From: an uncultured Gammaproteobacteria bacterium
Lineage (GTDB): Bacteria > Patescibacteriota > Microgenomatia > 2-02-FULL-39-11
Direction of reading: 5' to 3'
Length of the DNA stretch: 64,000 nt
Assembly (NCBI GenBank): GCA_964520615.1
Contig: CAZFNL010000137.1
Span: 7,140-71,139 of the forward strand
Part shown: in pieces, positions 2,828-62,304 of the stretch
Layout: every line of letters starts with the position of its first letter
How positions within the stretch are numbered: the first letter of the stretch is position 1
Notes under the pieces: model-generated
Database searches by the model: none
What the model was told of the DNA's origin: nothing
What the model saw: only the letters and a program-made list of their open reading frames with translations
Made by a program: the position numbers and the translations under genes

Positions 2828-4159
2828 TTAGGGTAAAAAAGATTTTACCAGATCGACTACTCTTCCAGCAACGCCTTGTATGGGTACTTTTCCCACAATC
2901 TTTGTCAATTTATTCAGATTAAACTTTTCCTTCATCACTACTCCTGTTTTTGAGGCATAAATTACAAGTCCAGAGGCCGTTGCGTAGGTAGGAGTAATGA
3001 TTTCATCCACCAACCCCGTAATATTGGTCGGTACTCCAACTCTCACCTGCATTGCAAGGTTTCTTTTGGCGGTTTCCACTATTCCCAAAGTTTCTGATCC
3101 TCCTCCGGTAATAACAATTCCTGCAGGCGTTAATCCTCCAAAACCGCTCTTTTTTATCTCAAGTCCTATCATGGTAAATATCTCATTCAATCGCGGCCTT
3201 ATGATACCTTCTATCAAGGTTTTTTTAGATACCTTGTTTAACCCTTCAGATAAGTGCAGATTTGATAAATCCATACTGTCATGATCGTCTTTCTCTTTAC
3301 CTTTTTTTGTATTATCGGATTGTATTGACTGTGGAAGAGTCATCTCTGGTTCCTTCTTATTTAGTGCCAACTTTATTTTTTCCGCACTTTCTAAAGAAAT
3401 TCTCAAACCTATAGCTAGATCATTTGTTATATTTCTAGCACCTACAGGCAAAACAGATGAATACGAAAGTGAACCATCTACAAACATACAAATATCAGTC
3501 GTTCCTCCACCTATATCAACCAGTACTACTCCTAATTCTTTTTCTGTTTCCGTTAATACAGCTGTACTAGATGCTAACCCACCAAAGACAAATCCGTCTA
3601 CATCAATCCCCACAAGCGACGCGCATTTTTCTAGGTTGCGAAGAGCAGTTCCTCCAGTAGTAATAATATGAGTATTCACTTCAAGCCTGACACCGGTCAT
3701 CCCCACAGGATCCTTTATTCCCTCTTGTGAATCCACAATAAATTCTCTTGGAAGAACATGAAGGATTTCTCGGGTTGAAGGAAGATTGACCGCTCTAGCT
3801 GCCTCCACAGCTCGATTTATATCTTCTGGTGTAATTTCTTTTTGTGGTTCGGCAACAGCCACTACTCCATGGGAATTCTGAGACATAATATGCGAACCAC
3901 CCACTGATAGAAACGCTGAGGAGATAGAATAACCCGCCATTCTTTCTGAGGCTTCAAGACTTTCTACAATAGCTGCAGTTGACTCTTCTATATCGACTAT
4001 TTGACCTTTTCTGATTCCTCTGCTTTTTACACTTGCCACTCCCATCACGTTTACAGTACCCTCTTCCCCCACAGAAGCTATAATAGTGGTAATTTTTGTT
4101 GTACCGATGTCTATTCCGGCAACTATTCTTTTACTCATAAACTTTTTTCTAATAAGCAA
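2828..4159 (-). CDS. ftsA: Cell division protein FtsA (actin-like ATPase).
   Basis: N-terminal IVAGIDIGTTKI and DIGGGTTD actin-fold motifs. Located immediately upstream of ftsZ. Confidence 0.9.
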   Translation of the reverse strand: MLIRKKFMSKRIVAGIDIGTTKITTIIASVGEEGTVNVMGVASVKSRGIRKGQIVDIEESTAAIVESLEASERMAGYSISSAFLSVGGSHIMSQNSHGVVAVAEPQKEITPEDINRAVEAARAVNLPSTREILHVLPREFIVDSQEGIKDPVGMTGVRLEVNTHIITTGGTALRNLEKCASLVGIDVDGFVFGGLASSTAVLTETEKELGVVLVDIGGGTTDICMFVDGSLSYSSVLPVGARNITNDLAIGLRISLESAEKIKLALNKKEPEMTLPQSIQSDNTKKGKEKDDHDSMDLSNLHLSEGLNKVSKKTLIEGIIRPRLNEIFTMIGLEIKKSGFGGLTPAGIVITGGGSETLGIVETAKRNLAMQVRVGVPTNITGLVDEIITPTYATASGLVIYASKTGVVMKEKFNLNKLTKIVGKVPIQGVAGRVVDLVKSFLP

Positions 4160-26460: not shown

Positions 26461-26490
26461 CTACATTTATCACCACTTTACACCACTTTA
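26461..26490 (-). promoter_or_regulatory. Direct repeats of TAAAGTGGTG (two perfect copies, one degenerate third) immediately upstream of mraZ. Candidate MraZ operator.
   Basis: The minus strand reads TAAAGTGGTG TAAAGTGGTG ATAAATGTAG with 10-nt periodicity, ending 5 nt before the mraZ ATG. MraZ operators are direct repeats (TGGGN in E. coli, AAAGTG[T/G] in Mollicutes). Confidence 0.5.
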
Positions 26491-26494
26491 TTCC

Positions 26495-26523
26495 ATAATG
26501 CTACTGTAACCACCTCTTGTCAA
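26495..26523 (-). promoter_or_regulatory. Candidate sigma-70 promoter of the dcw cluster (TTGACA-17 nt-CATTAT), placed just upstream of the MraZ-box repeats.
   Basis: On the minus strand, TTGACA is at 26523..26518 and CATTAT at 26500..26495. The -35 sits inside an imperfect palindrome CCTCTTGTCAAGAGG. Confidence 0.4.
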
Positions 26524-26570: not shown

Positions 26571-26632
26571 AAGGCGAGAATCCTGATTCCCAATCAGGCT
26601 CGCCTCGCTGGTGAAGCGGGTCGGGCCCGACA
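26571..26632 (-). ncRNA. Candidate structured GC-rich RNA element, copy 2 of 2, upstream of the mraZ promoter. Strand is uncertain.
   Basis: ggcgag-(cctgatt ccc aatcagg)-ctcgcc nested hairpin, cgct-ggtga-agcg, gtcgggcccgac hairpin. The core 26597-26625 matches 7492-7520, with a compensatory change between the ggtga/tcacc (copy 1) and ggcgag/ctcgcc (copy 2) helices. Confidence 0.35.
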
Positions 26633-26760: not shown

Positions 26761-28434
26761 TTAATTCTTACCTAGTATCACTACCACGTCATATTTACCG
26801 CTGTCAGATAAAGATTCGACAGTTGAAGTGTCTATTTTATCCTTCAAATCAGCTTTTATAAGAGGCAGGTAATCCTTTTTACCGTCTTTTATCTTCAGAA
26901 CGCTTTTGGCGTAATTCTGGTTATCCGCATTTGACTTTGCCACGTTCTTATAACCCAATCCTTCAAGATAAGTAGCTATATCGCCAGCGTAACCTGTTTT
27001 ATCTGTACCATTTTCTACCGACACTTTTAGATCACTTCTTTTAAGATTAGGATTTACTGTTGGAGTTGGAGTCAATGAAGGCATTACAGTGGGTATTGGA
27101 GTGGGAGTGGGAGAAGAAGAAAATGGCAACGATATTCCCGATTTTTTACCACGGACTATTGTAAACAAGCCTCCCAAGACTAACACAACTCCTACAAGAA
27201 CAAGAATTATTCTTACCATTTTATTGACAAGAAGTTTCCCTAATCCTGACCGTTGATACTGTGTAAGATCATTTCCAAGAAGAGCATTATCTGAATATCC
27301 TGTAGAGGATGTTTTAGCGGAAACAGTCTCAACTGGTTTCGATTTATATTCTTCCTTCTCGTTATTCACTACAGTCTCCATACTTCTAGATTCATACTTT
27401 GGCTCCTTTACCTCTTTTTCTGCCGTTTCTTCTTTTTCTTCCAGATCTTCCAAAGGATGTTTCTGTGCCATTTGTATCTCTGGCTCTGAAATATTTCCCA
27501 CTTCCTGTACGTCACGGGCAAAATTAGGTGGAGACTTTGTTCTGGAAAGAAAAATTAAGCCCAATGAATTTGAAAGAAGCATTTTAGGAATTCCGCCTGA
27601 CTCAAATCCCAATTTTTCCTTCTGCAAAACACCTTCCATGAAATCACCCATCTTTAGTGTTTGTAGGTTTAATGCTTCTGAAAGCTCGCTTGAATGAAGT
27701 TCCATTGATTCTATACCGTTTAATATCATTTTTGACACATGAATATCATGATTTTTTTCCAATTCCGCCAGAACACTTCTAGTTTCAGTAGCAAAACCCT
27801 TCCCGCTTAATTTCTTATGCATCGAACTGACAGGACCAAATTTGTCATAAATGATATACTCCGCTGTCTTCTTATCAATACTGGAGTAGAGAATTTTTTC
27901 ACTATCTCCAATCACATCCTTCACAAGCTCAAAAATCGCAAATGATCTTGATGAAATAAAAAGAGGACTAATTCCAATTGACAATAAAAACTTTGCAAAG
28001 TGGGCTATAGTGTTTTTGGCCGTAGCGGTATAGAGAATTCCTTTTTTTCCTCTCCCGTCGTTTACTATCCGGTAAAAATTATCCAGCTCAGATGGATCAT
28101 AAGGCAGTATTTTCTTAGCCTGATCAATAACTACATCTGAAATATCTTCCTCTCTTACCGAGCTGTCCAACGGGAATCTGTGCGTAATTACCTGTTTATC
28201 AGAGATAGTAATGGCGGCTTGCTTGTCATTTTGGGATCGAGGATAACCTGAAGCAAAAATGCTTTTCAATTCGGATTTTAGCTTTTCCGGATCAACAATA
28301 AGACCGTTTATTATAAGACCGTCTGATATCTCGTGCCTGGCGCAGCTTACAATTTTTTCTCCGCCCAGTATACTTTTGTTCGTTTGTATTGATTCAACAG
28401 AAGTATCATTGAAGTCTATATAAAGCATATTCAA
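26761..28434 (-). CDS. Membrane protein with a PilM/FtsA-like actin-fold N-terminal domain, a TM segment, a Pro/Thr-rich linker and a C-terminal LytR_C-like domain.
   Basis: N-terminus MLYIDFNDTSVESIQ ... AITISDKQVITHRFPLD ... SIGISPLFISSRSFAIF resembles PilM. TM segment LVNKMVRIILVLVGVVLVLGGLF, then SSSPTPTPIPTVMPSLTPTPTV, then VSVENGTDKTGYAGDIATYLEGLGYKNV (LytR_C pattern). Confidence 0.5.
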   Translation of the reverse strand: MNMLYIDFNDTSVESIQTNKSILGGEKIVSCARHEISDGLIINGLIVDPEKLKSELKSIFASGYPRSQNDKQAAITISDKQVITHRFPLDSSVREEDISDVVIDQAKKILPYDPSELDNFYRIVNDGRGKKGILYTATAKNTIAHFAKFLLSIGISPLFISSRSFAIFELVKDVIGDSEKILYSSIDKKTAEYIIYDKFGPVSSMHKKLSGKGFATETRSVLAELEKNHDIHVSKMILNGIESMELHSSELSEALNLQTLKMGDFMEGVLQKEKLGFESGGIPKMLLSNSLGLIFLSRTKSPPNFARDVQEVGNISEPEIQMAQKHPLEDLEEKEETAEKEVKEPKYESRSMETVVNNEKEEYKSKPVETVSAKTSSTGYSDNALLGNDLTQYQRSGLGKLLVNKMVRIILVLVGVVLVLGGLFTIVRGKKSGISLPFSSSPTPTPIPTVMPSLTPTPTVNPNLKRSDLKVSVENGTDKTGYAGDIATYLEGLGYKNVAKSNADNQNYAKSVLKIKDGKKDYLPLIKADLKDKIDTSTVESLSDSGKYDVVVILGKN

Positions 28435-28527: not shown

Positions 28528-29166
28528 CTATTGCCAACGATTGTTTTTATATTGTGACAAAGTAAAACTTGGACCATGCCCTGGAAATACTGTAGTGTCA
28601 CCCGGCAAGCTTAAAATTGAATATATAGATTTTTGCAGAAAGTCACTACTGCTATAAGAGAAGTCCGTTCTACCTACTCCTCCTCCGGCAAACAAAAGGT
28701 CGCCGCCAAAAAGAGATTTTGATTTTTCTTGATAAAGGCAAACACTCCCTGGAGTATGTCCTGGAGTCTCTAGAATTTCTATATTTTCATTACCAACATT
28801 CAGAGTTTTTTTATCCGTCAGAAACCCGCTAATTTGAGGTGGAGGATCAATCTGAAGAATACCCAGGAAATGCCGGGCTGATTGCTGCATATTCTTCATC
28901 AAGAATACATCCTTCTTGTTTATATAAAATGGAATATCAAAAGCAAGTTGTAGCTCTAAAGCCGCCATAATATGGTCAAAATGACCATGTGTAGCTACTA
29001 AAGACACAGGTTTCAGACTCATATCTTTTAATTTTCTTATAATATACTCAACATCATCACCGGGATCAATAATTAAAGTAGACAATGTATCAGGGTCAGA
29101 AAGAAGATAACAGTTGGTCGCCATTTGACCTACCGTCAACACTGTAATTTGGAGATTTTCCTTCAT
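28528..29166 (-). CDS. MBL-fold metallo-hydrolase.
   Basis: HGHFDH (HxHxDH) zinc-binding motif, plus downstream His and Asp ligands (ETPGHTPGS, GGD, FPGHG). Confidence 0.8.
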   Translation of the reverse strand: MKENLQITVLTVGQMATNCYLLSDPDTLSTLIIDPGDDVEYIIRKLKDMSLKPVSLVATHGHFDHIMAALELQLAFDIPFYINKKDVFLMKNMQQSARHFLGILQIDPPPQISGFLTDKKTLNVGNENIEILETPGHTPGSVCLYQEKSKSLFGGDLLFAGGGVGRTDFSYSSSDFLQKSIYSILSLPGDTTVFPGHGPSFTLSQYKNNRWQ

Positions 29167-29624
29167 TACAGGGAATACGTTTTTTGAAACACGCTAATAC
29201 CACTAGATGAATTAAATTTCAAAGAAAGATCAATTGAGGTAACTCCCGTATCATAGACGCATTTTCCACTACTGCAGGTTCCCAGCACTATATCATCCCG
29301 TTTGACCTCTGAGTCTCCACTTTTAAGCGTAATTTTCCCCAAAACTCCGCGGGGAATTCCTGCTCCAGTTACATAAGTCATCTCATATTCTACTGATTGT
29401 GTATCGGAAGGTATCCTTTTTATATCCAAAGATAAAGACTTATTACCATCATTCGATGTTAGACTAACTTCAACACTGCTTGAAACTGTGGGAAACGCGA
29501 CTGTAGGAGTAGGAGTGACATCTGTTACGGCGGGTTTATTTGAAACCAAACCCTTAACCGCAAAAAAGACAACAACTATAATAACGATAATAGCGATAAT
29601 AACTCCTATAATAATCTTTTTCAT
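29166..29624 (-). CDS. Hypothetical membrane-anchored or secreted protein.
   Basis: N-terminal hydrophobic anchor (IIIGVIIAIIVIIVVVFFAV), Thr/Pro linker, beta-rich C-terminal region. No recognisable motif. Confidence 0.4.
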   Translation of the reverse strand: MKKIIIGVIIAIIVIIVVVFFAVKGLVSNKPAVTDVTPTPTVAFPTVSSSVEVSLTSNDGNKSLSLDIKRIPSDTQSVEYEMTYVTGAGIPRGVLGKITLKSGDSEVKRDDIVLGTCSSGKCVYDTGVTSIDLSLKFNSSSGISVFQKTYSL

Positions 29625-40303: not shown

Positions 40304-43300
40304 TTAATTTTTCGGAAGTTTACCATCAGGTACCAATTGAATTATGACATATTTATTTGTCAAATAGGCTATTTTGTATTTTCTTTTTGCAGGATCTGCA
40401 ATTTGAGCTTCTGCCATCAGCTGTTTTGTAAGATCGTCAAAATTGACGCTTACATAGTAATCTGCGCCCATATTAATCATTTTGTCAATTGATTCCTGCA
40501 TCACCGGCCAACCGGCTCTGTGTGTTTGATAAAGAAATGCTGTATCTCCGTCATATGGTGCAATAACCAAAGCGCTTTGGGGAGTCTTGGTGTCAACAGC
40601 TCTTCCGGCCTCCACAATTTCCGGGTGATTAATATTGTAATAGTCCCTGACAAAATACCAGCCGAACATTTCAGTAAATACAATCGTCACTCCGATAAGA
40701 CCAAAAACCAGTATTCCTGAACGGTATTTCCTTCCCATATCGGCAAAAAAGGTTATGCCTTTTGCCACAAATACCGCAATTATAGGAACAGTCAATATCT
40801 GGTAATAATCATGCCGTACGTTGCCTGTAGCAAAAACAGTGACATATGCCAATATTGCAATTCCCCACAAGTAAAAAAGAAACTTGTCCTTTTTGATAGG
40901 AGCAAGAATTCCAAGTATCAAAAAAGGTAAACCCCAATATCCCAAAATCAGTCTGGACAATCGGTCTGCAAAAAGCCAGTAGAAAAATGCACCCTTAAAT
41001 CTGATGCCGTCGCCGTTGAGAAGCCAAAGATTGGCTGGTACTCCTTCAGGAAAATGACTTATCCACCACCGCCACCATCCTAGAGGCAGCGAAGATATAC
41101 CAAAAAATAATACGAGTCCTAAAAAAGATTTAACAGAAAATCCCATTTTCCTGACCCAAAGATAAGACATCGGAAGGAAAAGAAATACCGCATACGGTTT
41201 TACCAAAAGTGCAGCAGCTGTGAAGACGCCCGCCAAAAATAGGTAGAGTATCACCTTCACGATTTCTACAATCCTTTTTTCTCCTGAAAGTTTTAATTTC
41301 TGCTTTGAATCTAAAAATAGATCAAGAAACCAAATCATGCCAATAGAAGTACATACTAGAAGCGGATCAGGCAGTATAGTGCGGGTAAAAAAAATGTTAT
41401 ATGGAAGAAAAGCAAAAACAGCAGCTGCTATTGCGGCTTCTCTTCTTCCCAGGTATTTCCTGACAAGAAGAAAAAGAAATATTATTGATCCCAAAGTGGC
41501 AAAGATCGAAGTTAATCTGCCGGAAACTTCTATATTCCAACCGACAAATATTTTATCGGTTACTACACTCAATACGTTGTATAAAGGGAATTCCACAAAA
41601 CGCAGTCCCTTGGGATTGTTTTTCCCAGAGGCCACATTGGAAAGATCATCGTATGTGGGAAAAAGTATATTAATCCCGTGCTTTACATAATTTCTAGTAA
41701 CAGCAGAAGTATCAGCCTGTCGCCATGAATGCCAATCAGCAAGAGGCTCATCTATCTTGTACAGTCTGACGGTAAACGCAAAAACCAGTATGACAAGAAG
41801 TATGAATTTATCGCTTTTTATGAAACTAACTGATTTATGGATTAGACCTGATATAAACTCGCTCAAATCCGGTATTCTCGGGAAAGGGATCTCTCTTTTT
41901 CTCTCTTTTCTCAACATTTCCACTCCAGCTAAGACAAATCCCGTTATACCCCAAAACATAAATGCTACCTTTGACGATTCGAAAACATCAATATATAGAG
42001 CGTTAACCATAAGCCCCATTAGCAATCCGGCAAACCCGATGTTTATACTGAATATAAAGGGATCAGCAAAGAGATTCAGATTACGCCAAATGATAAATAC
42101 GATAAAAAGCAGAGTTCCGAAAAACGTAATAAAACCCAAAACTCCAGTCTCACCCAAATTCCTCAAAAAATCATTATCTGTTGATTCCGCTTCTGTAAAT
42201 TGTGTTGGCTGAGTCTTATTTAATGTTGAATATCCGCTACCCAAAAGCGGGTTTCGTTCAAAACCTTTTATCGCCATTGGCCATAAAGCGTCAAATCTTA
42301 TGGCCGTTGATAAGTCGTATATAAAGGCCGTTTTGGAATAAGTACGAGGAACAGCCGCAAGAGAAGCGCTATTTGTACCCGTGGGCACCATAAGCGGTAT
42401 ATTCTTATAGACATCAATTGGCCGGTCTGGAGTGGGAGGCTGGTCACTTGATGAAGTGATTTGAGAAAGAGCTGCGTTTGGATTATTCTCCAAAAAGACG
42501 GCTTTGTCGGGCGGAGGCGGAGCACCAAGAGGAGTCAGAAGAAGTGATTTTACACCTGAAAGACGCTCATCAATCCTGAGAAATTTAGTAAATCTCTCAG
42601 ACAGATCACCAAAAGACAGCATTACTAGAATAGAAAGAAATATAACCGTAAACCAACGGGTAAGAGACCAGGACATTCCCTTTTTATATGCCCAAAAGAA
42701 GAATATGACAGTGATGCCAAATAGATATGCGATAAAAGAAGTTCTTGAGGCAGTCAGTATAAGCGTCCAAAAGGCGGCAGAGATTGTTAGAAATATCAAC
42801 AGTTTCAGTAATTTTCTTTTAACACCAAAAAACAAACTCCAAAGAAGCACCAACGCCATCATAATATAAGCTGCCAGATCATAGTGGCCCCCAAAAGTTG
42901 AAAGAACTCTTGCATGAGGAGTCAGATAAAGCATCCAACCCTTAGCAAATTCCCGGTTCATTGTCGAAAATGCAGGCCAGTAAAGATATCTTTGACCGAA
43001 GCCGTATATCGAAACAGCAACCACAGTAACAATAATAAGACCAATATATATCTTCAACTGCTTCAGACTTCTGACAGAAGAATAAAATATGAAAAAAAGG
43101 GAAAAGTACTCTATCCGTCTAGCGTAATGTAAAAACATCTTTTCAAGGTGTAATGGTATTAAAGGTACTGTATGCAGAAGAAAAACTGCAGATAGCATGG
43201 AGAGTACTCCTACTACAAGATAGGCTAATATCGGCTTAAAAAGAGGATTACCGGACAATCTTGTCTTCCCTCGTACCAACCACACTACCCACAGGAAAAC

Positions 43301-43486
43301 ACAAAAGCTGACTATGAAATCTTCCAGTCTGACTCTGACAATATAACCCGGGAGTATATCCCCGATGGGCAATTTAGGATAAAGAGGTATGAAAACCAAA
43401 AGAAAACCTGCTAATACTGAAAGGATGTTATCATCCAACCAACTTAAAAGCTTTGACATATAGTGAAAAACGCCTGGAGTTGCCAC
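40304..43486 (-). CDS. 1060-aa fusion of an O-antigen-ligase/polymerase-like domain (Wzy_C) with a GT-C ArnT/PMT-like glycosyltransferase domain.
   Basis: The N-terminal half has ~12 TM segments and the Wzy_C terminal signature DNDFLRNLGETGVLGFI, then a Pro-rich linker (GAPPPPDK...QPPTPDRP). The C-terminal half reads LVFAFTVRLYKIDEPLADWHSWRQADTSAVTRNY plus ~11 TM segments, typical of PMT_2/GT39-like GT-C enzymes. Confidence 0.6.
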   Translation of the reverse strand: MATPGVFHYMSKLLSWLDDNILSVLAGFLLVFIPLYPKLPIGDILPGYIVRVRLEDFIVSFCVFLWVVWLVRGKTRLSGNPLFKPILAYLVVGVLSMLSAVFLLHTVPLIPLHLEKMFLHYARRIEYFSLFFIFYSSVRSLKQLKIYIGLIIVTVVAVSIYGFGQRYLYWPAFSTMNREFAKGWMLYLTPHARVLSTFGGHYDLAAYIMMALVLLWSLFFGVKRKLLKLLIFLTISAAFWTLILTASRTSFIAYLFGITVIFFFWAYKKGMSWSLTRWFTVIFLSILVMLSFGDLSERFTKFLRIDERLSGVKSLLLTPLGAPPPPDKAVFLENNPNAALSQITSSSDQPPTPDRPIDVYKNIPLMVPTGTNSASLAAVPRTYSKTAFIYDLSTAIRFDALWPMAIKGFERNPLLGSGYSTLNKTQPTQFTEAESTDNDFLRNLGETGVLGFITFFGTLLFIVFIIWRNLNLFADPFIFSINIGFAGLLMGLMVNALYIDVFESSKVAFMFWGITGFVLAGVEMLRKERKREIPFPRIPDLSEFISGLIHKSVSFIKSDKFILLVILVFAFTVRLYKIDEPLADWHSWRQADTSAVTRNYVKHGINILFPTYDDLSNVASGKNNPKGLRFVEFPLYNVLSVVTDKIFVGWNIEVSGRLTSIFATLGSIIFLFLLVRKYLGRREAAIAAAVFAFLPYNIFFTRTILPDPLLVCTSIGMIWFLDLFLDSKQKLKLSGEKRIVEIVKVILYLFLAGVFTAAALLVKPYAVFLFLPMSYLWVRKMGFSVKSFLGLVLFFGISSLPLGWWRWWISHFPEGVPANLWLLNGDGIRFKGAFFYWLFADRLSRLILGYWGLPFLILGILAPIKKDKFLFYLWGIAILAYVTVFATGNVRHDYYQILTVPIIAVFVAKGITFFADMGRKYRSGILVFGLIGVTIVFTEMFGWYFVRDYYNINHPEIVEAGRAVDTKTPQSALVIAPYDGDTAFLYQTHRAGWPVMQESIDKMINMGADYYVSVNFDDLTKQLMAEAQIADPAKRKYKIAYLTNKYVIIQLVPDGKLPKN

Positions 43487-56417: not shown

Positions 56418-58011
56418 TCGAATAACTGTTATATTTTATCAGAAATAATCCCATACAGATAATATATAACCCAAACAAGAAAACAACCCCATTTCCCTTC
56501 AACAGTGCCGGCTTATATTGACTGACCTGAAGAAGAAAAGTTGTAAAATTTGCAAAACTATAGTAGGTTTTCGCCACGGTGTATAAAGCAAATAAGTCAA
56601 GAAGTAGCATCAAATTTACCGCGAGCTTAACCATTTTATTCTGCAAGCTGGTTTTGGATGGAATTAAAGATTTTATTCCAATAAGGATAAATAACATATC
56701 AGAAGATATCAGAGGAAAAAAGTATCTTCCTTGAACACCAAGTTGAAATCCAGAGGTATACCAGGACATCCAATCGTAAGACGAAACTCCCATAAAGAAA
56801 ATAATATTGATAAAAATAAGGAAAAAGATAGCCTGTACTCTTCTTTCCAACCATCCTTTCCCGCGAAAAATAGTAACAAGATAAATCCCAAATCCCAGAA
56901 TTGAAATTGCCGTTAAGATATTTATTATTCTATGAACCACCCTCGGATAAGTGACGCCAAGCCAGTCATAAACTCCCCAATACCAGGGTAAAACCTCTTT
57001 ATAGGTATGAGAAACTGTATATTCGCGGAAAAATTTAACATAACTTGCAGGATTTAACTTCTGTAAAAAAACCAATATTTGTGCCGATATTGAGCTTTTC
57101 ATGTATAAAAATGAAACAATCAGCGCAGCCACCAGTAGAAGAAATGGTCGAACAAAAGACTGATGCCATACCTTTTTCATATCCCTGGCAAAAGCTTCTG
57201 CCAATAAAACAATAACGGCAGGAATCATCACAATAAACTGCGGCTTGGTATATAAGGAAAGAAATACGACTGTCAGAAGAATAATAAGTTTCCTGACGGT
57301 CAATCCATTTATAATAGTCTCGGAAACAAGAAGGATAAAAAAAGTGAAAAGAAAATTACCCAAAGAATCACTGTTAACACCGACATTTGAGAAAACCATC
57401 ATCGGTTGAAATGCGACCAGCGCCGCCAAAGTTATAGCGCTTAATCTATCCTTTGGAAAAAAAAGGGCACCAATCCTATATGTCAGATAAACCGTACTTG
57501 CGAAAATCAAAATTGACCACAGACGTACAGCATAAACCCTGACAAACAAACTATATCCCTGGAAAATTTTATAAACCAAACTTGCAGGAAAGTAATAAAG
57601 TATGGGATAAATGGTAGACTCACGGTGGACAAATGTTGATTGTGCTGAAGTTTTTGCTAAAGATGCTATACTAGCTTCATATTTTCCCTCCAGAGAATTT
57701 GTGAATTCAATTTTGTAATCAGGATGAAAAGTAAAAAGGTTATTTCCTGATTTATCTCTTGCTGTTCCCAAAAGTTTTTCTGATATATTAATTTCCTTAT
57801 TAAGGTTATATTTTTCTGTATAGTTAGGATTTCTTCCTTTTTGCGCAACAAATGCCACCTGCCCAAAATGAGCTTGTTCGTCCGGGAACTGCCAGAGGGG
57901 AACAATTATAATCCAAATTAAGGCATTAAATAATACTGCTGCGAAAAAAACCAGGTTATGTTTGGAATTAATCAAGTTTAACTTTTTGGAAATCTTATTA
58001 AATAATTTCAT
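56398..58011 (-). CDS. Polytopic membrane protein, GT-C-like (DUF2142-like PDEQxH loop motif). Putative glycosyltransferase.
   Basis: VPLWQFPDEQAHFGQVAF in the first extracytoplasmic loop, ~12 TM segments. Overlaps both flanking GT-C genes. Confidence 0.45.
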   Translation of the reverse strand: MKLFNKISKKLNLINSKHNLVFFAAVLFNALIWIIIVPLWQFPDEQAHFGQVAFVAQKGRNPNYTEKYNLNKEINISEKLLGTARDKSGNNLFTFHPDYKIEFTNSLEGKYEASIASLAKTSAQSTFVHRESTIYPILYYFPASLVYKIFQGYSLFVRVYAVRLWSILIFASTVYLTYRIGALFFPKDRLSAITLAALVAFQPMMVFSNVGVNSDSLGNFLFTFFILLVSETIINGLTVRKLIILLTVVFLSLYTKPQFIVMIPAVIVLLAEAFARDMKKVWHQSFVRPFLLLVAALIVSFLYMKSSISAQILVFLQKLNPASYVKFFREYTVSHTYKEVLPWYWGVYDWLGVTYPRVVHRIINILTAISILGFGIYLVTIFRGKGWLERRVQAIFFLIFINIIFFMGVSSYDWMSWYTSGFQLGVQGRYFFPLISSDMLFILIGIKSLIPSKTSLQNKMVKLAVNLMLLLDLFALYTVAKTYYSFANFTTFLLQVSQYKPALLKGNGVVFLFGLYIICMGLFLIKYNSYSNDKKAA

Positions 58012-60346
58012 ACATATCCCAGTAAATATCGTTTCGGGAACTGATTACTTTTTTCGAATATTCATTATTTCCCAATATATCAAATATTTTTGTCTTATCC
58101 CTCAATTTATCAAATCTTTTTACAGATGTACCATAAGTACTAATTAACACAAATTTGATGCGGTTTTTTTTATAAAAACTGTAAATATCCGAAAAATTTG
58201 ATGATTCGAAAACTGGATAAAAAAGCGATAATCCTCCCCCATATTCCACGTTATAAGTCTGCAAACCGGAATAATAAGAAAGTCCGCTAGGTGTACCAAA
58301 TACAACAATTCTATCTCCTAAGTGAGAATGACTTGCCAAATATGGTACCACTGTTGTACTTTGCCCCCAATAGTCAAACAACATATTTTGTTCCCTTTTA
58401 GTAAAGTTCAGTAGATTTATACCCCCTGATACGGCAATGAATATATAACCATATAATATTAAAATCGCTGCAGGAACTATTTTTTTCAAATAAAGTCTAT
58501 CAGACATAGCACCAATAACTACAACCGTAATCGACAGAAGAAAGGCTAAAATTATCATGAGGGGTATATCGCTTGGTGAAATTGATACGCGTGAGGCTAA
58601 AATATATAATGATCTAAGAACAACTTCTAATATGTCGTTTGGGATTTTAATTAAATCTGAAAAATGAGATTTCACCTCAGGAACCAATGCTTCACCGATT
58701 TGAAAATTAACGCCGTATTTTTGCACGGAATACCTTAATGTATTGTTTCCAATAGAATATGACCAGAAATTCCACAAAAGAAATTTGGATGAAAGAAAGT
58801 GAAAAAATACTCCTGCATATACTATATTTTCCACCATTTTTCTCCTGACAGACAATTTTTTTAGACCGTCTAATATCAACACTGCCAGAAAAGGAATTAC
58901 AGGTAGAAGCCACTTGGTATCAGCAGCACCTAAAAAAAGCACCCACCAGCTGTACCAGACAAAAAAAATATATACTGGGAGAAATTTAATTCCTCGGGAA
59001 AATCCTTTTAACACTCCTGTAATCTTCGGCAATAACCAAAAGACTGCTAGAGAAGAACCGAATATAAACGTAAGCGTCTCAAATGGAATACCTCCTTTTC
59101 CCACAACACCAATTGAACTGCCAATACTGGAAGCCCAATTATAACTTAATTTTTGTGAGGTAAAATTTCCAAAAAATAAATAATTTCGCAAAATAAAAAT
59201 AAACCCGGAAAGTGAAATCATCGCGGAAGCAACTAACTTGTAAAAATCTTTTTTATCGCTGTATATATTTATCCTCACTGACCAGAAAGCCATAAACAGC
59301 AAAACGGCAAAAAATATTCCAAAGGCAAAGCCCTGCGGTACAGTGTAAGGTTCTCCCTTAAAAAATATTTTGAGAAGAAATGGAACAAAAGGAACAGATA
59401 AATACAGAATTTTCCCCTTCCCTCTAAAGTATCTGAAGACGCCTAACCCAAAAACCAAGGCATAGAGGAATATCGCCTGGTATTTGATAAGAAGAGATGC
59501 TCCAAGAGATAAACCCAATAGTGCATATATTATCCATGAATATTTTTTCCTATGAGAAGAAATTAATTTCAACATAAACCAGAAACAGAACAAAGATAAA
59601 AAGGCAAAAATAAAATCGGGATAGAAACCGGCTTCAAATATAAATCCTTCCAGAAAAGGAATGACCAGTATAATTAGGACCCCTAAAAGTGAATATTCAC
59701 TAGGAAAGAAAAGGCTGAATATATAGTAGCTGAATAATAAAATACCTAGAAAGTAGGGAATATTGATAAATCTAAAAACTTCACCAAATATATTCCCTGA
59801 AATTGTATAGTAATAGGCAAAAAACGACGGTCCCCCCACGGGAGGAATTGCAAAAGGACTACCGTCATAATAGTTATATGCCGGAATTTTATCTGCCATG
59901 ACAATTGACCTTGCCAAAGGCAGGTAGCTATCGACAACATCGCTGTCAACTACCGGCCTGAGCGTAAAAATGAGGAGGAAAACCAATATAAAAATACCTA
60001 GAAAAAGGTATGTAACTTTGTTTCCCGAAAGTATTTTCGTCTTATTGTCACAGGTTTTAATACCTTTGCTAATCACGGAAAATAATAAATCCTTAAGCGT
60101 CACAATAGTTAATAAAACCAAAATGGCAAATAGAATCCTGGAGGTTACGATAAATCCTCTTGGAAAAACAATTCCCCAAAAACTTGAGAAAAGAACTGTA
60201 AAAGATGTGGTTGCAACAAGTGATAAACATAGTTTTAACAGAACTGAATATCTCTTTAATCTGGCAACACGGTTTAACACAGGATAAGCACCAAATATAA
60301 ATGACAAGGGAATAATAAACATGAGAATACTTTCCATATCTTTCAT
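57998..60346 (-). CDS. Large (782 aa) polytopic membrane protein, GT-C-like putative glycosyltransferase.
   Basis: More than 14 TM segments. An acidic first-loop motif (RPVVDSDVVDSYLPLARSIV) resembles the GT-C DxD/DExD loop. Confidence 0.45.
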   Translation of the reverse strand: MKDMESILMFIIPLSFIFGAYPVLNRVARLKRYSVLLKLCLSLVATTSFTVLFSSFWGIVFPRGFIVTSRILFAILVLLTIVTLKDLLFSVISKGIKTCDNKTKILSGNKVTYLFLGIFILVFLLIFTLRPVVDSDVVDSYLPLARSIVMADKIPAYNYYDGSPFAIPPVGGPSFFAYYYTISGNIFGEVFRFINIPYFLGILLFSYYIFSLFFPSEYSLLGVLIILVIPFLEGFIFEAGFYPDFIFAFLSLFCFWFMLKLISSHRKKYSWIIYALLGLSLGASLLIKYQAIFLYALVFGLGVFRYFRGKGKILYLSVPFVPFLLKIFFKGEPYTVPQGFAFGIFFAVLLFMAFWSVRINIYSDKKDFYKLVASAMISLSGFIFILRNYLFFGNFTSQKLSYNWASSIGSSIGVVGKGGIPFETLTFIFGSSLAVFWLLPKITGVLKGFSRGIKFLPVYIFFVWYSWWVLFLGAADTKWLLPVIPFLAVLILDGLKKLSVRRKMVENIVYAGVFFHFLSSKFLLWNFWSYSIGNNTLRYSVQKYGVNFQIGEALVPEVKSHFSDLIKIPNDILEVVLRSLYILASRVSISPSDIPLMIILAFLLSITVVVIGAMSDRLYLKKIVPAAILILYGYIFIAVSGGINLLNFTKREQNMLFDYWGQSTTVVPYLASHSHLGDRIVVFGTPSGLSYYSGLQTYNVEYGGGLSLFYPVFESSNFSDIYSFYKKNRIKFVLISTYGTSVKRFDKLRDKTKIFDILGNNEYSKKVISSRNDIYWDMYEII

Positions 60347-61362: not shown

Positions 61363-62304
61363 CTATATTTTGAATTTATGCCTCACGGCAACAGATAAAC
61401 GCGTTAGGATCTCCTCTTCATTGGGAATTGTAACAAACTCCTTATTCTGCTTTAAGTTTTTATTTTTCTCCTCCCAATTTTTTATCTGATTAGCCATAAA
61501 AGGAAAAAACTGGTATTTCTCAAGAACTAGATTTCGAGCTTTTACAATTGCCTCACTGCTCTTTTGCCAAAGATTGCTTTGACTAACTTGGTCAATCTTT
61601 TTAGCTACATTTTTGTCGTTTATGTCAATCTGTACGAAAGAATTTTTTGGAAAGTAGTCCGATAAATTGGTACAACCGTAATATATGGGCATTGTGTAGG
61701 AGAGAAAACAATCGGCAATTTTTTCCGTCCAATAATCAGGACAGGAAAAATTCTCGATTGCCAGAGAATATTTGTATGGATAAAGACCATCCCATTTATC
61801 TTTTATTGGTAGAAAGCCAAAACCAAATAAGTCAAAATCCACTTTGTCTTTTATTTTATGAAGAAACATTAGTCTCTTTTTATGCCCTGAAAAATTATTT
61901 TTATTTGAAGTGATAAAAGAAAGTACTTTTGATTTAGATATTGATTTAATTTTTACCAACTCGTCGTATGTTTTTCCGATATGCCAGGGTAACGCCGGTT
62001 GTGTATGTATAAACCTTTCCTCTTTCAAGGAGCTATCCGTAGTAAAAACTCTGTAATAGATTTTATCGGCATTATGCCTCCTGTGGAAATACTCATTAGG
62101 CGGTTCTTGCTGAAGTGACCAAACATTTTCTTTAGAACAAGACACATTGTAATTCTGCCTGGCAAAATTGGAAACAATTACATAATCACATTCTGAAACA
62201 GGCTTGGTAGTAAACTGAACCCCATCCCAAATTCCCTTTCCTTTGGGTGATTGCCTGAAGATATCAGGATAATCCCAATTCTTTATTATTCTTACTAAAA
62301 TCAT
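61363..62304 (-). CDS. GT10-like alpha-1,3-fucosyltransferase-family glycosyltransferase.
   Basis: YKYSLAIENFSCPDYWTEKIADCFLSYTMPIYYG matches the GT10 FucT motif FxLxFENSxxxxYxTEK. Confidence 0.5.
   Translation of the reverse strand: MILVRIIKNWDYPDIFRQSPKGKGIWDGVQFTTKPVSECDYVIVSNFARQNYNVSCSKENVWSLQQEPPNEYFHRRHNADKIYYRVFTTDSSLKEERFIHTQPALPWHIGKTYDELVKIKSISKSKVLSFITSNKNNFSGHKKRLMFLHKIKDKVDFDLFGFGFLPIKDKWDGLYPYKYSLAIENFSCPDYWTEKIADCFLSYTMPIYYGCTNLSDYFPKNSFVQIDINDKNVAKKIDQVSQSNLWQKSSEAIVKARNLVLEKYQFFPFMANQIKNWEEKNKNLKQNKEFVTIPNEEEILTRLSVAVRHKFKI

What the first reader, a model, noticed from the sequence alone, without database searches (positions are those of the whole stretch)
26761..28434. PilM/FtsA-like actin-fold domain fused through a TM segment and Pro/Thr linker to a LytR_C domain, directly upstream of mraZ
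The domain combination (cytoplasmic actin-like ATPase module, membrane anchor, PT-rich linker, extracytoplasmic LytR_C-like module) is not a standard type IV pilus PilM. It sits at the head of the division/cell-wall cluster. It could be a division- or envelope-associated scaffold linking a cytoplasmic actin-like element to cell-wall-facing machinery.
Basis: partly seen in the sequence, partly recalled or inferred. Interest (0 to 1): 0.55.

Follow-up and report, generated by a model that had tools for sequence, protein, structure and literature searches.

The report
PilM–PilN-like membrane protein with LytR_C ectodomain
This gene encodes a membrane-spanning relative of the type IV pilus platform protein PilM that carries a cell-wall-facing LytR_C domain; it belongs to an uncharacterised family of ultra-small (CPR) bacteria whose other members sit inside pilus operons, so its place next to the cell-division cluster is probably neighbourhood, not function.

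Summary
ORF 26761-28434 (−) has five parts: a PilM-type actin-like domain, an acidic disordered tether, one TM helix, a Pro/Thr spacer and a true LytR_C domain. Both Pfam domains pass their gathering cut-offs, and fold searches confirm both.

The division-scaffold interpretation is only weakly supported.
- A canonical FtsA lies elsewhere in the window.
- A conserved promoter with MraZ-box-like repeats separates the gene from mraZ.
- In one orthologous locus, opposite-strand genes intervene. In another, the gene lies elsewhere in the genome.

An exhaustive profile search shows a CPR family with this architecture.
- More distant members (about 25-35% identity) occupy the PilM slot of PilB-PilC-pilin operons in four independent loci.
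- Other CPR PilMs carry SH3b ectodomains after a TM helix.
- The target's invariant "PPNFA" aligns with PilN's PilM-binding "INLLP" motif.

The gene is therefore best read as a PilM–PilN-type (GspL-like) fusion with a wall-facing anchor.

The Gottesmanbacteria clade holding the target has lost the canonical ATP-binding motifs. It has no pilus genes within tens of kilobases and lies between two envelope clusters. A repurposed envelope role is therefore not excluded. I could not establish whether Gottesmanbacteria carry another PilM.

The parts
26761..28434 (-). Whole ORF (557 aa from TTG; probable true start is the ATG at 28428)
27535..28428 (-). Cytoplasmic PilM-type actin-like domain (aa 3-300) with degenerate nucleotide-binding motifs
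27517..27531 (-). 'PPNFA' motif (N304 and F305 invariant), which aligns with the PilN N-terminal 'INLLP' PilM-binding motif of CPR PilMs
27244..27513 (-). Variable acidic/Lys/Ser-rich disordered tether (aa 308-397, pLDDT below 50)
27148..27210 (-). Single transmembrane helix (aa ~409-429). N-in/C-out topology is inferred from the lack of a signal peptide.
27043..27144 (-). Pro/Ser/Thr-rich extracytoplasmic spacer (aa 431-464)
26767..27033 (-). LytR_C domain (aa 468-556)
26471..26523 (-). Not part of the gene: conserved dcw promoter (TTGACA-17-CATTAT, 26523-26495) and two AAAGTGGTG direct repeats (26489-26471) upstream of mraZ. These separate the target from the dcw operon.

Best explanation
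The gene encodes a bitopic membrane protein of a CPR-specific PilM–PilN-type fusion family, the same design as GspL of type II secretion.

Anatomy:
- A compact cytoplasmic actin-like PilM domain comes first.
- It is followed in cis by an 'NF' version of the PilN peptide that docks into PilM.
- Then come a long acidic disordered tether, one TM helix and a Pro/Thr spacer that crosses the wall zone.
- An extracytoplasmic LytR_C domain takes the place of the PilN/PilO periplasmic domain.

Proposed mechanism (inferred): it acts as the alignment/stator element of a type IV filament machine. The PilM domain engages the PilB/PilC motor platform on the inside. On the outside, the LytR_C domain self-associates or binds wall-associated partners. 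This anchors the machine in the envelope of a monoderm cell that has no PilP/PilQ. Other CPR lineages appear to use SH3b domains in the same position.

Shown: domain identities, folds, family membership and the pilus-operon location of relatives. Inferred: the topology, the cis docking of the NF motif, and a pilus role for this Gottesmanbacteria orthologue. That orthologue is encoded away from any pil genes and has lost the ATP-binding motifs, as GspL has.
For: - The N-domain is PilM by sequence and fold.
- The exhaustive N-domain profile search found 2962 hits at E<1e-3. About 75 of the top 158 have N-domain + one TM + LytR_C.
- Same-architecture members occupy one operon slot, [HK]-RR-RR-PilB-PilC-minor pilins-PilX-like-[fusion]-major pilin, in L015 and L022. 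In L018 and L019 they sit next to N_methyl pilin genes.
- A canonical long PilM (P0071) occupies the same slot in L020.
- Canonical CPR PilMs end in 'INLL', and long forms continue into a TM helix plus SH3_3/SH3_4 domains. The target's invariant 'PPNFA' aligns with that motif.
- In a neighbour-joining tree (no support values) the target clade lies among other LytR_C fusions.
- ATP-motif loss also occurs in a pilus-operon member: P0100 in L022 has 'LEVNEK'. Motif loss is therefore compatible with a pilus role.
- LytR_C is a self- and LCP-interacting module located at nascent wall in M. tuberculosis VirR (PMC11832169).
- Type IV pilus genes including PilM are reported as widespread in CPR (PMC6744442, PMC12206443).
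Against: - There are no PilB, PilC or pilin homologues anywhere in the 64-kb window. There are none within 6-10 kb in 12 orthologous loci either.
- The target clade has degenerate phosphate-1, phosphate-2 and adenosine motifs and new clade-specific invariants such as 'TGGIP'.
- Two other motif-degenerate lineages (P0082, P0123) are also outside pilus operons.
- The gene is stably placed between a roughly 30-kb surface-glycan cluster and the dcw/peptidoglycan cluster.
- I could not show that Gottesmanbacteria have pilus genes, nor that they lack another PilM.
Confidence: 0.55

Rival explanations
1. Repurposed paralogue. In Gottesmanbacteria this PilM-derived pseudo-ATPase has left the pilus machinery. 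It acts as a transmembrane scaffold for envelope biogenesis or division, linking a cytoplasmic partner to wall-facing LytR_C interactions such as glycopolymer attachment or peptidoglycan remodelling.
For: - The position immediately upstream of mraZ is conserved, and downstream of a conserved small TM protein, in 12 of 13 orthologous loci.
- Envelope clusters flank the gene on both sides.
- ATP motifs are lost while purifying selection stays strong and new invariant residues have appeared.
- LytR_C solo proteins control wall integrity in mycobacteria.
- No pil genes are nearby.
Against: - The target is separated from mraZ by the conserved dcw promoter.
- The adjacency is broken in L013 and L009.
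- The synteny also includes unrelated housekeeping genes within a single lineage.
- A canonical FtsA is present.
- Motif loss also occurs in a pilus-operon member.
- No LCP catalytic protein was seen in the window.
Confidence: 0.28
2. FtsA-like second divisome actin that tethers FtsZ to the membrane through a real TM helix.
For: The fold resembles FtsA at Foldseek E about 1e-14. The gene lies at the head of the dcw region.
Against: - PilM matches are better by five orders of magnitude.
- There is no FtsA or SHS2_FTSA Pfam hit.
- A genuine FtsA is encoded next to FtsZ.
- All closest relatives outside the clade are PilMs in pil operons.
Confidence: 0.04
3. Decaying remnant of a pilus gene with no function.
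For: The nucleotide-binding motifs are lost.
Against: - dN/dS is 0.16.
- Mean column identity is 55%, with dozens of invariant residues among proteins only 33-50% identical.
- The ORF is intact in every locus examined.
Confidence: 0.02

Closest known systems
PilM of type IVa pili (PF11104/TIGR01175; e.g. T. thermophilus PilM:PilN 2YCH, P. aeruginosa PilM:PilN1-12 5EOU)
   Same: - It is the best sequence and fold match for aa 1-300.
- A PilN-type N-L-L-like motif follows the domain.
- Relatives sit in PilB/PilC/pilin operons.
   Different: - The target is about 50 aa shorter.
- Its score is far below the TIGR01175 cut-off (38 vs 133 bits).
- The ATP-binding motifs are degenerate.
- It is fused to a TM helix and an ectodomain.
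- It is not in a pil operon in this genome.
GspL/EpsL of type II secretion (and PilM-PilN fusion proteins generally)
   Same: - The design is the same: a cytoplasmic actin-like domain that does not need ATP, one TM helix and an extracytoplasmic domain.
- Cyto-EpsL is a significant fold match (E 1e-10, TM-score 0.63 on the target).
   Different: - There is no GspL Pfam hit.
CPR 'long' PilMs with SH3b ectodomains (e.g. P0177, named PilM, Candidatus Buchananbacteria)
   Same: - The architecture is PilM + INLL motif + TM + wall-binding-type ectodomain.
- They occupy the same operon slot as the LytR_C fusions.
   Different: - The ectodomain is SH3_3/SH3_4 instead of LytR_C.
- The ATP motifs are canonical.
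[quoted passage not shown]
   Same: - There is a weak NCBIfam Cei hit.
- Both are membrane-anchored with the domain facing the wall.
   Different: The mycobacterial proteins have only a short cytoplasmic tail and no actin-like domain. Their role is wall remodelling and vesiculation control.
FtsA
   Same: It belongs to the same actin-like superfamily with a 1C-type subdomain and is attached to the membrane.
   Different: - The match is weaker than to PilM.
- The FtsA and SHS2 signatures are absent.
- The true FtsA is at 2828-4159.

Membership tests
PilM (Pfam PF11104) | Profile match above the gathering score | tested here: met
   30.4 bits vs 27, but only profile positions 2-162 of 340. The family profile hits PDB PilM at 7e-12.
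PilM (NCBIfam TIGR01175) | Score above the curated cut-off | tested here: not met
   38.1 bits vs a cut-off of 133.
PilM | Actin-like fold closest to PilM structures | tested here: met
   Foldseek E 9e-20 to 5eou and 3e-18 to 2ych, ahead of FtsA.
PilM | Conserved nucleotide-binding motifs (phosphate 1 DxG/DISD, phosphate 2 DIGxxT, adenosine GG[GS][SA]) | tested here: not met
   The target has IDFNDTS, SIDKKTAE and LNGIES. Pilus-operon relatives P0053, P0048 and P0056 keep the motifs.
PilM | Binds the PilN N-terminal INLLP peptide | tested here: inconclusive
   The invariant PPNFA aligns with the INLL/LNLA motifs of CPR PilMs. Actual docking was not tested, and model pLDDT there is about 66.
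PilM | Encoded with pilB/pilC/pilN/pilO/pilins | tested here: not met
   No pil genes in the 64-kb window or in orthologous loci. The feature is met for more distant same-architecture relatives in L015, L018, L019 and L022.
FtsA | FtsA/SHS2_FTSA domain signatures | tested here: not met
   No such Pfam hit for the target. ORF 2828-4159 has both.
FtsA | Binds the FtsZ C-terminal peptide and polymerises at the septum | not testable with these tools
   This needs experiment.
GspL (T2SS) | GspL cytoplasmic domain plus ferredoxin-like periplasmic domain | tested here: not met
   No GspL Pfam hit. The cyto-EpsL fold match is secondary to PilM. The ectodomain is LytR_C.
LytR_C (PF13399) | Profile match above the gathering score and the LytR_C fold | tested here: met
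   [not shown]
LCP (LytR-CpsA-Psr) transferases | Catalytic LCP domain | tested here: not met
   Only PilM_2 and LytR_C were found at E up to 1.
dcw operon member | Co-transcribed with and inseparable from mraZ-ftsZ | tested here: not met
   A conserved promoter and MraZ-box-like repeats lie between the target and mraZ. Opposite-strand genes are inserted in L013. The orthologue is elsewhere in L009. Read-through transcription was not testable.

The most novel reading that the evidence does not exclude
In Gottesmanbacteria a PilM–PilN–LytR_C pilus platform protein has lost ATP binding and its operon. It has been recruited as a transmembrane scaffold that couples a cytoplasmic partner to wall-facing LytR_C interactions, at the junction of the surface-glycan and division/peptidoglycan clusters. 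That would make it an actin-fold envelope organiser distinct from FtsA and MreB.
Probability: 0.2. Interest if true: 0.6.

Novelty: new variant of a known kind. Interest (0 to 1): 0.35.

Why it matters
CPR/Patescibacteria depend on type IV pili for attachment to hosts and for DNA uptake. They are monoderm and lack the PilP/PilQ outer parts of the machine. How the pilus base is held in their envelope is not known.

This family suggests one answer: PilM and the PilN peptide are fused through a TM helix to a wall-facing module, LytR_C here and SH3b in other lineages. The library search found no paper that mentions PilM together with LytR_C. The only source-given name for a member is 'LytR C-terminal domain-containing protein'.

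The Gottesmanbacteria branch has lost its ATP motifs and is stably placed between envelope clusters. It is a tractable case for asking whether a pilus part has been reused in wall biology. The result also gives LytR_C, a domain of unclear function, a new partner context.

Tried and rejected
2. ATP-motif loss marks members that left pilus operons. Rejected as a rule: P0100 in L022 has a degenerate phosphate-2 motif yet sits in a complete PilB-PilC-pilin operon. P0082 and P0123 fit the idea.
3. The conserved upstream small TM protein (29166-29624) as a relocated pilus component. hhalign against the PilX-like and major-pilin genes flanking the fusions in pil operons gave probabilities of 0.5% or less.
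4. Pil gene homologues elsewhere in the window. None were found.
5. A structured RNA in the 304-bp gap. There was no Rfam hit, and folding was not better than shuffles (z = -1.2).
6. Taxon names for canonical PilM representatives. The listing of cluster members returned no names. The third homologue search returned only Parcubacteria and Saccharimonadia names among the top 120, so it is uninformative for Gottesmanbacteria.
7. The homologue search with P0053 gave only 3 hits. The metagenome scan gave a single locus, after a first attempt failed because the alignment was too divergent.
9. Literature and supplement searches for pilus genes in Gottesmanbacteria found nothing usable.

Full report
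**Observation**

The ORF at 26761..28434 (minus strand) is real. It is 557 aa from a TTG. All homologues begin M-[LI]-Y, so the ATG at 28428 is the likely start.

- Pfam finds PilM_2 at aa 6-167 (30.4 bits, cut-off 27; only the first half of the profile). It finds LytR_C at aa 468-556 (38.3 bits, cut-off 22.2).
- NCBIfam's pilM model scores 38 bits against a cut-off of 133. There is a weak hit to the mycobacterial envelope-integrity protein Cei.
- A profile of the family hits M. xanthus PilM in the PDB at 7e-12.
- In the AF2 model both globular domains have pLDDT around 88. Residues 312-402 and 431-458 are below 50, and there is a helix at 405-428.
- Foldseek ranks PilM structures first (9e-20 to 1e-17), then FtsA (about 1e-14), then the cytoplasmic domain of EpsL/GspL (1e-10).
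- The linker at aa 308-397 is rich in Glu, Lys and Ser. The spacer at aa 431-464 is rich in Pro, Ser and Thr.
- With no signal peptide and one TM helix, the topology must be N-in/C-out (inference).

**Surroundings**

Almost every gene in the window is on the minus strand.

- Downstream of the target is a 304-bp gap. Then come mraZ, rsmH, an ftsL-like ORF and ftsI. Next are several Mur ligases interleaved with peptidoglycan-precursor genes (murA, murB, glmU, glmS, a FemAB protein). The run ends with mraY, ftsW, murG, ftsQ, a canonical FtsA (FtsA + SHS2_FTSA domains) and FtsZ.
- Upstream are a metallo-beta-lactamase-fold protein, a 152-aa TM/Pro-Thr protein, GlyRS, RecO and a DUF4012 protein. 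Beyond them is a surface-glycan cluster of about 30 kb.
- No homologue of PilB, PilC or pilins exists in the window.

**Is it part of the dcw operon?**

- The gap holds a sigma-70-like promoter (TTGACA-17-CATTAT, 26523-26495). It is followed by two direct AAAGTGGTG repeats 10 bp apart, just before mraZ.
- The same CTCTTGACA-N17-CATTATGG element and two or three [AT]TGGTG-type repeats are conserved upstream of mraZ in all eleven orthologous loci examined.
- From general knowledge of MraZ operators (direct GTGG-containing repeats downstream of Pmra), I read this as the dcw promoter with MraZ boxes.
- In L013, two opposite-strand genes lie between the target orthologue and mraZ.
- In L009, a Gottesmanbacteria genome, the orthologue lies among purine-metabolism genes.
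- The target is therefore a neighbour of the dcw operon, not a member. Read-through transcription cannot be excluded.

**The family**

- The word-indexed search found only 12 relatives. The closest is 94% identical and named 'LytR C-terminal domain-containing protein [Patescibacteria group bacterium]'.
- The genome scan placed the clade in Candidatus Gottesmanbacteria.
- Within that clade, the order Bac_transf–DUF4012–RecO–GlyRS–smallTM–(MBL)–target–mraZ–rsmH–ftsL–ftsI is conserved down to 33% identity. This synteny includes unrelated housekeeping genes, so it says little about function.
- An exhaustive HMM search with the N-domain alone found 2962 proteins at E<1e-3, 709 at E<1e-10 and 56 at E<1e-30.
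- Of the best 158, about 75 have the same N-domain + one TM + LytR_C plan. The rest are 350-aa PilMs, 500-745-aa PilMs with a TM helix near residue 380 but no LytR_C, and 300-aa forms without a TM helix.
- The long forms carry SH3_3/SH3_4 domains. Where named, they are called PilM, from Buchananbacteria, Wolfebacteria, Paceibacteria and Saccharimonadales.

**Context of the wider family**

Four independent, more distant LytR_C fusions lie in type IV pilus gene sets.

| Protein | Locus | Context |
|---|---|---|
| P0053 | L015 | RR–RR–PilB–PilC–three pilin-like genes–PilX-like gene–[fusion]–major pilin |
| P0100 | L022 | Same order as L015, preceded by a histidine kinase |
| P0048 | L018 | Next to an N_methyl pilin gene |
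| P0056 | L019 | Next to an N_methyl pilin gene |
| P0071 (canonical long PilM) | L020 | Occupies the same slot |

None of these operons has a separate PilN or PilO call. The fusion appears to be the only alignment-complex component, which is an inference from Pfam calls on short, divergent genes.

Two other lineages are outside pil operons. P0082 in L024 sits among gyrase and folate genes, and P0123 is in L023.

**Sequence features**

- Canonical CPR PilMs have GLDISDxSIE, DIGARTT and GGSS. The pilus-operon fusions P0053, P0048 and P0056 keep these motifs (DISD, DIGSK, GGGGS).
- The target clade has L[ND]xxDxS[IV]E, x[IV][DN]KKxxE and a variable LxGxxS. The nucleotide-binding signatures are therefore eroded. 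New clade-invariant residues appear, including TGGIP.
- P0100, inside a pil operon, also has a degenerate phosphate-2 motif. Motif loss therefore does not by itself imply leaving the pilus machine. GspL offers a precedent (general knowledge).
- Canonical CPR PilMs end in INLL, which is the motif by which PilN's N-terminus binds PilM. I know this from the literature on 2YCH and 5EOU, not from a test here. The target's invariant PPNFA (N304, F305) aligns with it.
- The protein is therefore best described as PilM + PilN peptide + tether + PilN-like TM + LytR_C.
- The gene is under purifying selection: dN/dS is 0.16 and mean column identity is 55%.
- In a neighbour-joining tree without support values, the target clade is monophyletic and lies among other LytR_C fusions.

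**Mechanism proposed**

By analogy with PilM–PilN/PilO and GspL, the cytoplasmic domain would contact the PilB/PilC platform. The TM helix and Pro/Thr spacer would carry the connection across the membrane. LytR_C would fix the machine in the wall zone or oligomerise it. In M. tuberculosis, VirR self-interacts and binds LCP proteins through LytR_C and localises at nascent wall (PMC11832169). SH3b domains in the same position in other CPR PilMs point to a wall-anchoring role for this position (inference).

For this Gottesmanbacteria orthologue the pilus role is inferred, not shown.

**What remains open**

I could not determine whether Gottesmanbacteria carry pil operons, or whether those operons have their own PilM. 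Name look-ups, a third homologue search, literature and supplements were uninformative, and the AFDB library was unavailable.

The repurposed-scaffold reading keeps appreciable weight because of the conserved placement between two envelope clusters, the motif loss and the absence of pil genes nearby.

**Verdict**

The gene is a new variant of a known kind: a PilM–PilN/GspL-type platform protein with a LytR_C ectodomain, in an uncharacterised CPR family. Interest is moderate to low, at 0.35.

Noticed in passing
window 26471-26523 (-); also L001, L003, L005, L007, L008, L010-L014 and L017 upstream of mraZ: There is a strongly conserved dcw promoter (CTCTTGACA-N17-CATTATGG). It is followed by two or three direct AAAGTGGTG-type repeats spaced about 10 bp apart, just before mraZ. 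These look like MraZ operator boxes conserved across Gottesmanbacteria.
   Followed up: partly
window 29166-29624 (-): A 152-aa protein has an N-terminal TM helix, a Pro/Thr linker and a highly conserved Cys-containing domain (…LPRGVLGKI…DIVLGTCSSGKCVYDxGV…LSLKFN). It lies immediately upstream of the target or MBL gene in nearly all orthologous loci and often overlaps the GlyRS stop codon. It has no Pfam family and no relation to the pilus-operon neighbours (hhalign probability 0.5% or less).
   Followed up: partly
window 26573-26604 (-): A GC-rich nested hairpin (GGCGAGCCTGATT-GGG-AATCAGGATTCTCGCC) lies in the target–mraZ gap of a 37% GC genome. It has no T-tract and no Rfam hit. The gap as a whole does not fold better than shuffles, and the sequence is not obviously conserved in L007.
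   Followed up: partly
window 1651-26456 (-): The dcw cluster is extended. It embeds murA, murB, glmU, glmS, a FemAB-family protein, a DegT-type aminotransferase, an alpha/beta hydrolase, diacylglycerol kinase and a Cu-oxidase_4 (YfiH/PgeF-like) gene between the Mur ligases. Nearly the whole peptidoglycan pathway is therefore in one co-directional block.
   Followed up: no
window 33880-64000 (-): A surface-glycan/glycosylation cluster of about 30 kb lies here. It includes a 1060-aa Wzy_C + PMT_2 fusion (40304-43486), several PMT_2 and DUF2142 membrane proteins, a GT10 fucosyltransferase-like gene (61363-62304) and a 782-aa ORF with no Pfam family (57998-60346).
   Followed up: no
L015 1116-9149; L022 96-9935; L020 180-12717: CPR type IV pilus operons share one order: (HK)–RR–RR–PilB–PilC–2-3 minor pilins–a conserved ~135-aa PilX-like protein (GYIA…EGCxEEALLRLR…GxCTI)–PilM-fusion–major pilin. 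No separate PilN or PilO gene was called.
   Followed up: partly
P0165-P0177 and other hits: Many CPR proteins named PilM are 500-630 aa. After the PilM domain and a TM helix they carry SH3_3/SH3_4 (bacterial SH3) domains. This parallels the LytR_C fusions and suggests that wall-binding ectodomains are a general feature of CPR PilMs.
   Followed up: partly
P0047, P0059, P0061, P0064, P0066, P0067, P0076: There are stand-alone versions of the same N-domain, about 300 aa long. They end right after the LNL[IL]/INFV motif and have no TM helix or ectodomain. Their genomic context was not examined.
   Followed up: no
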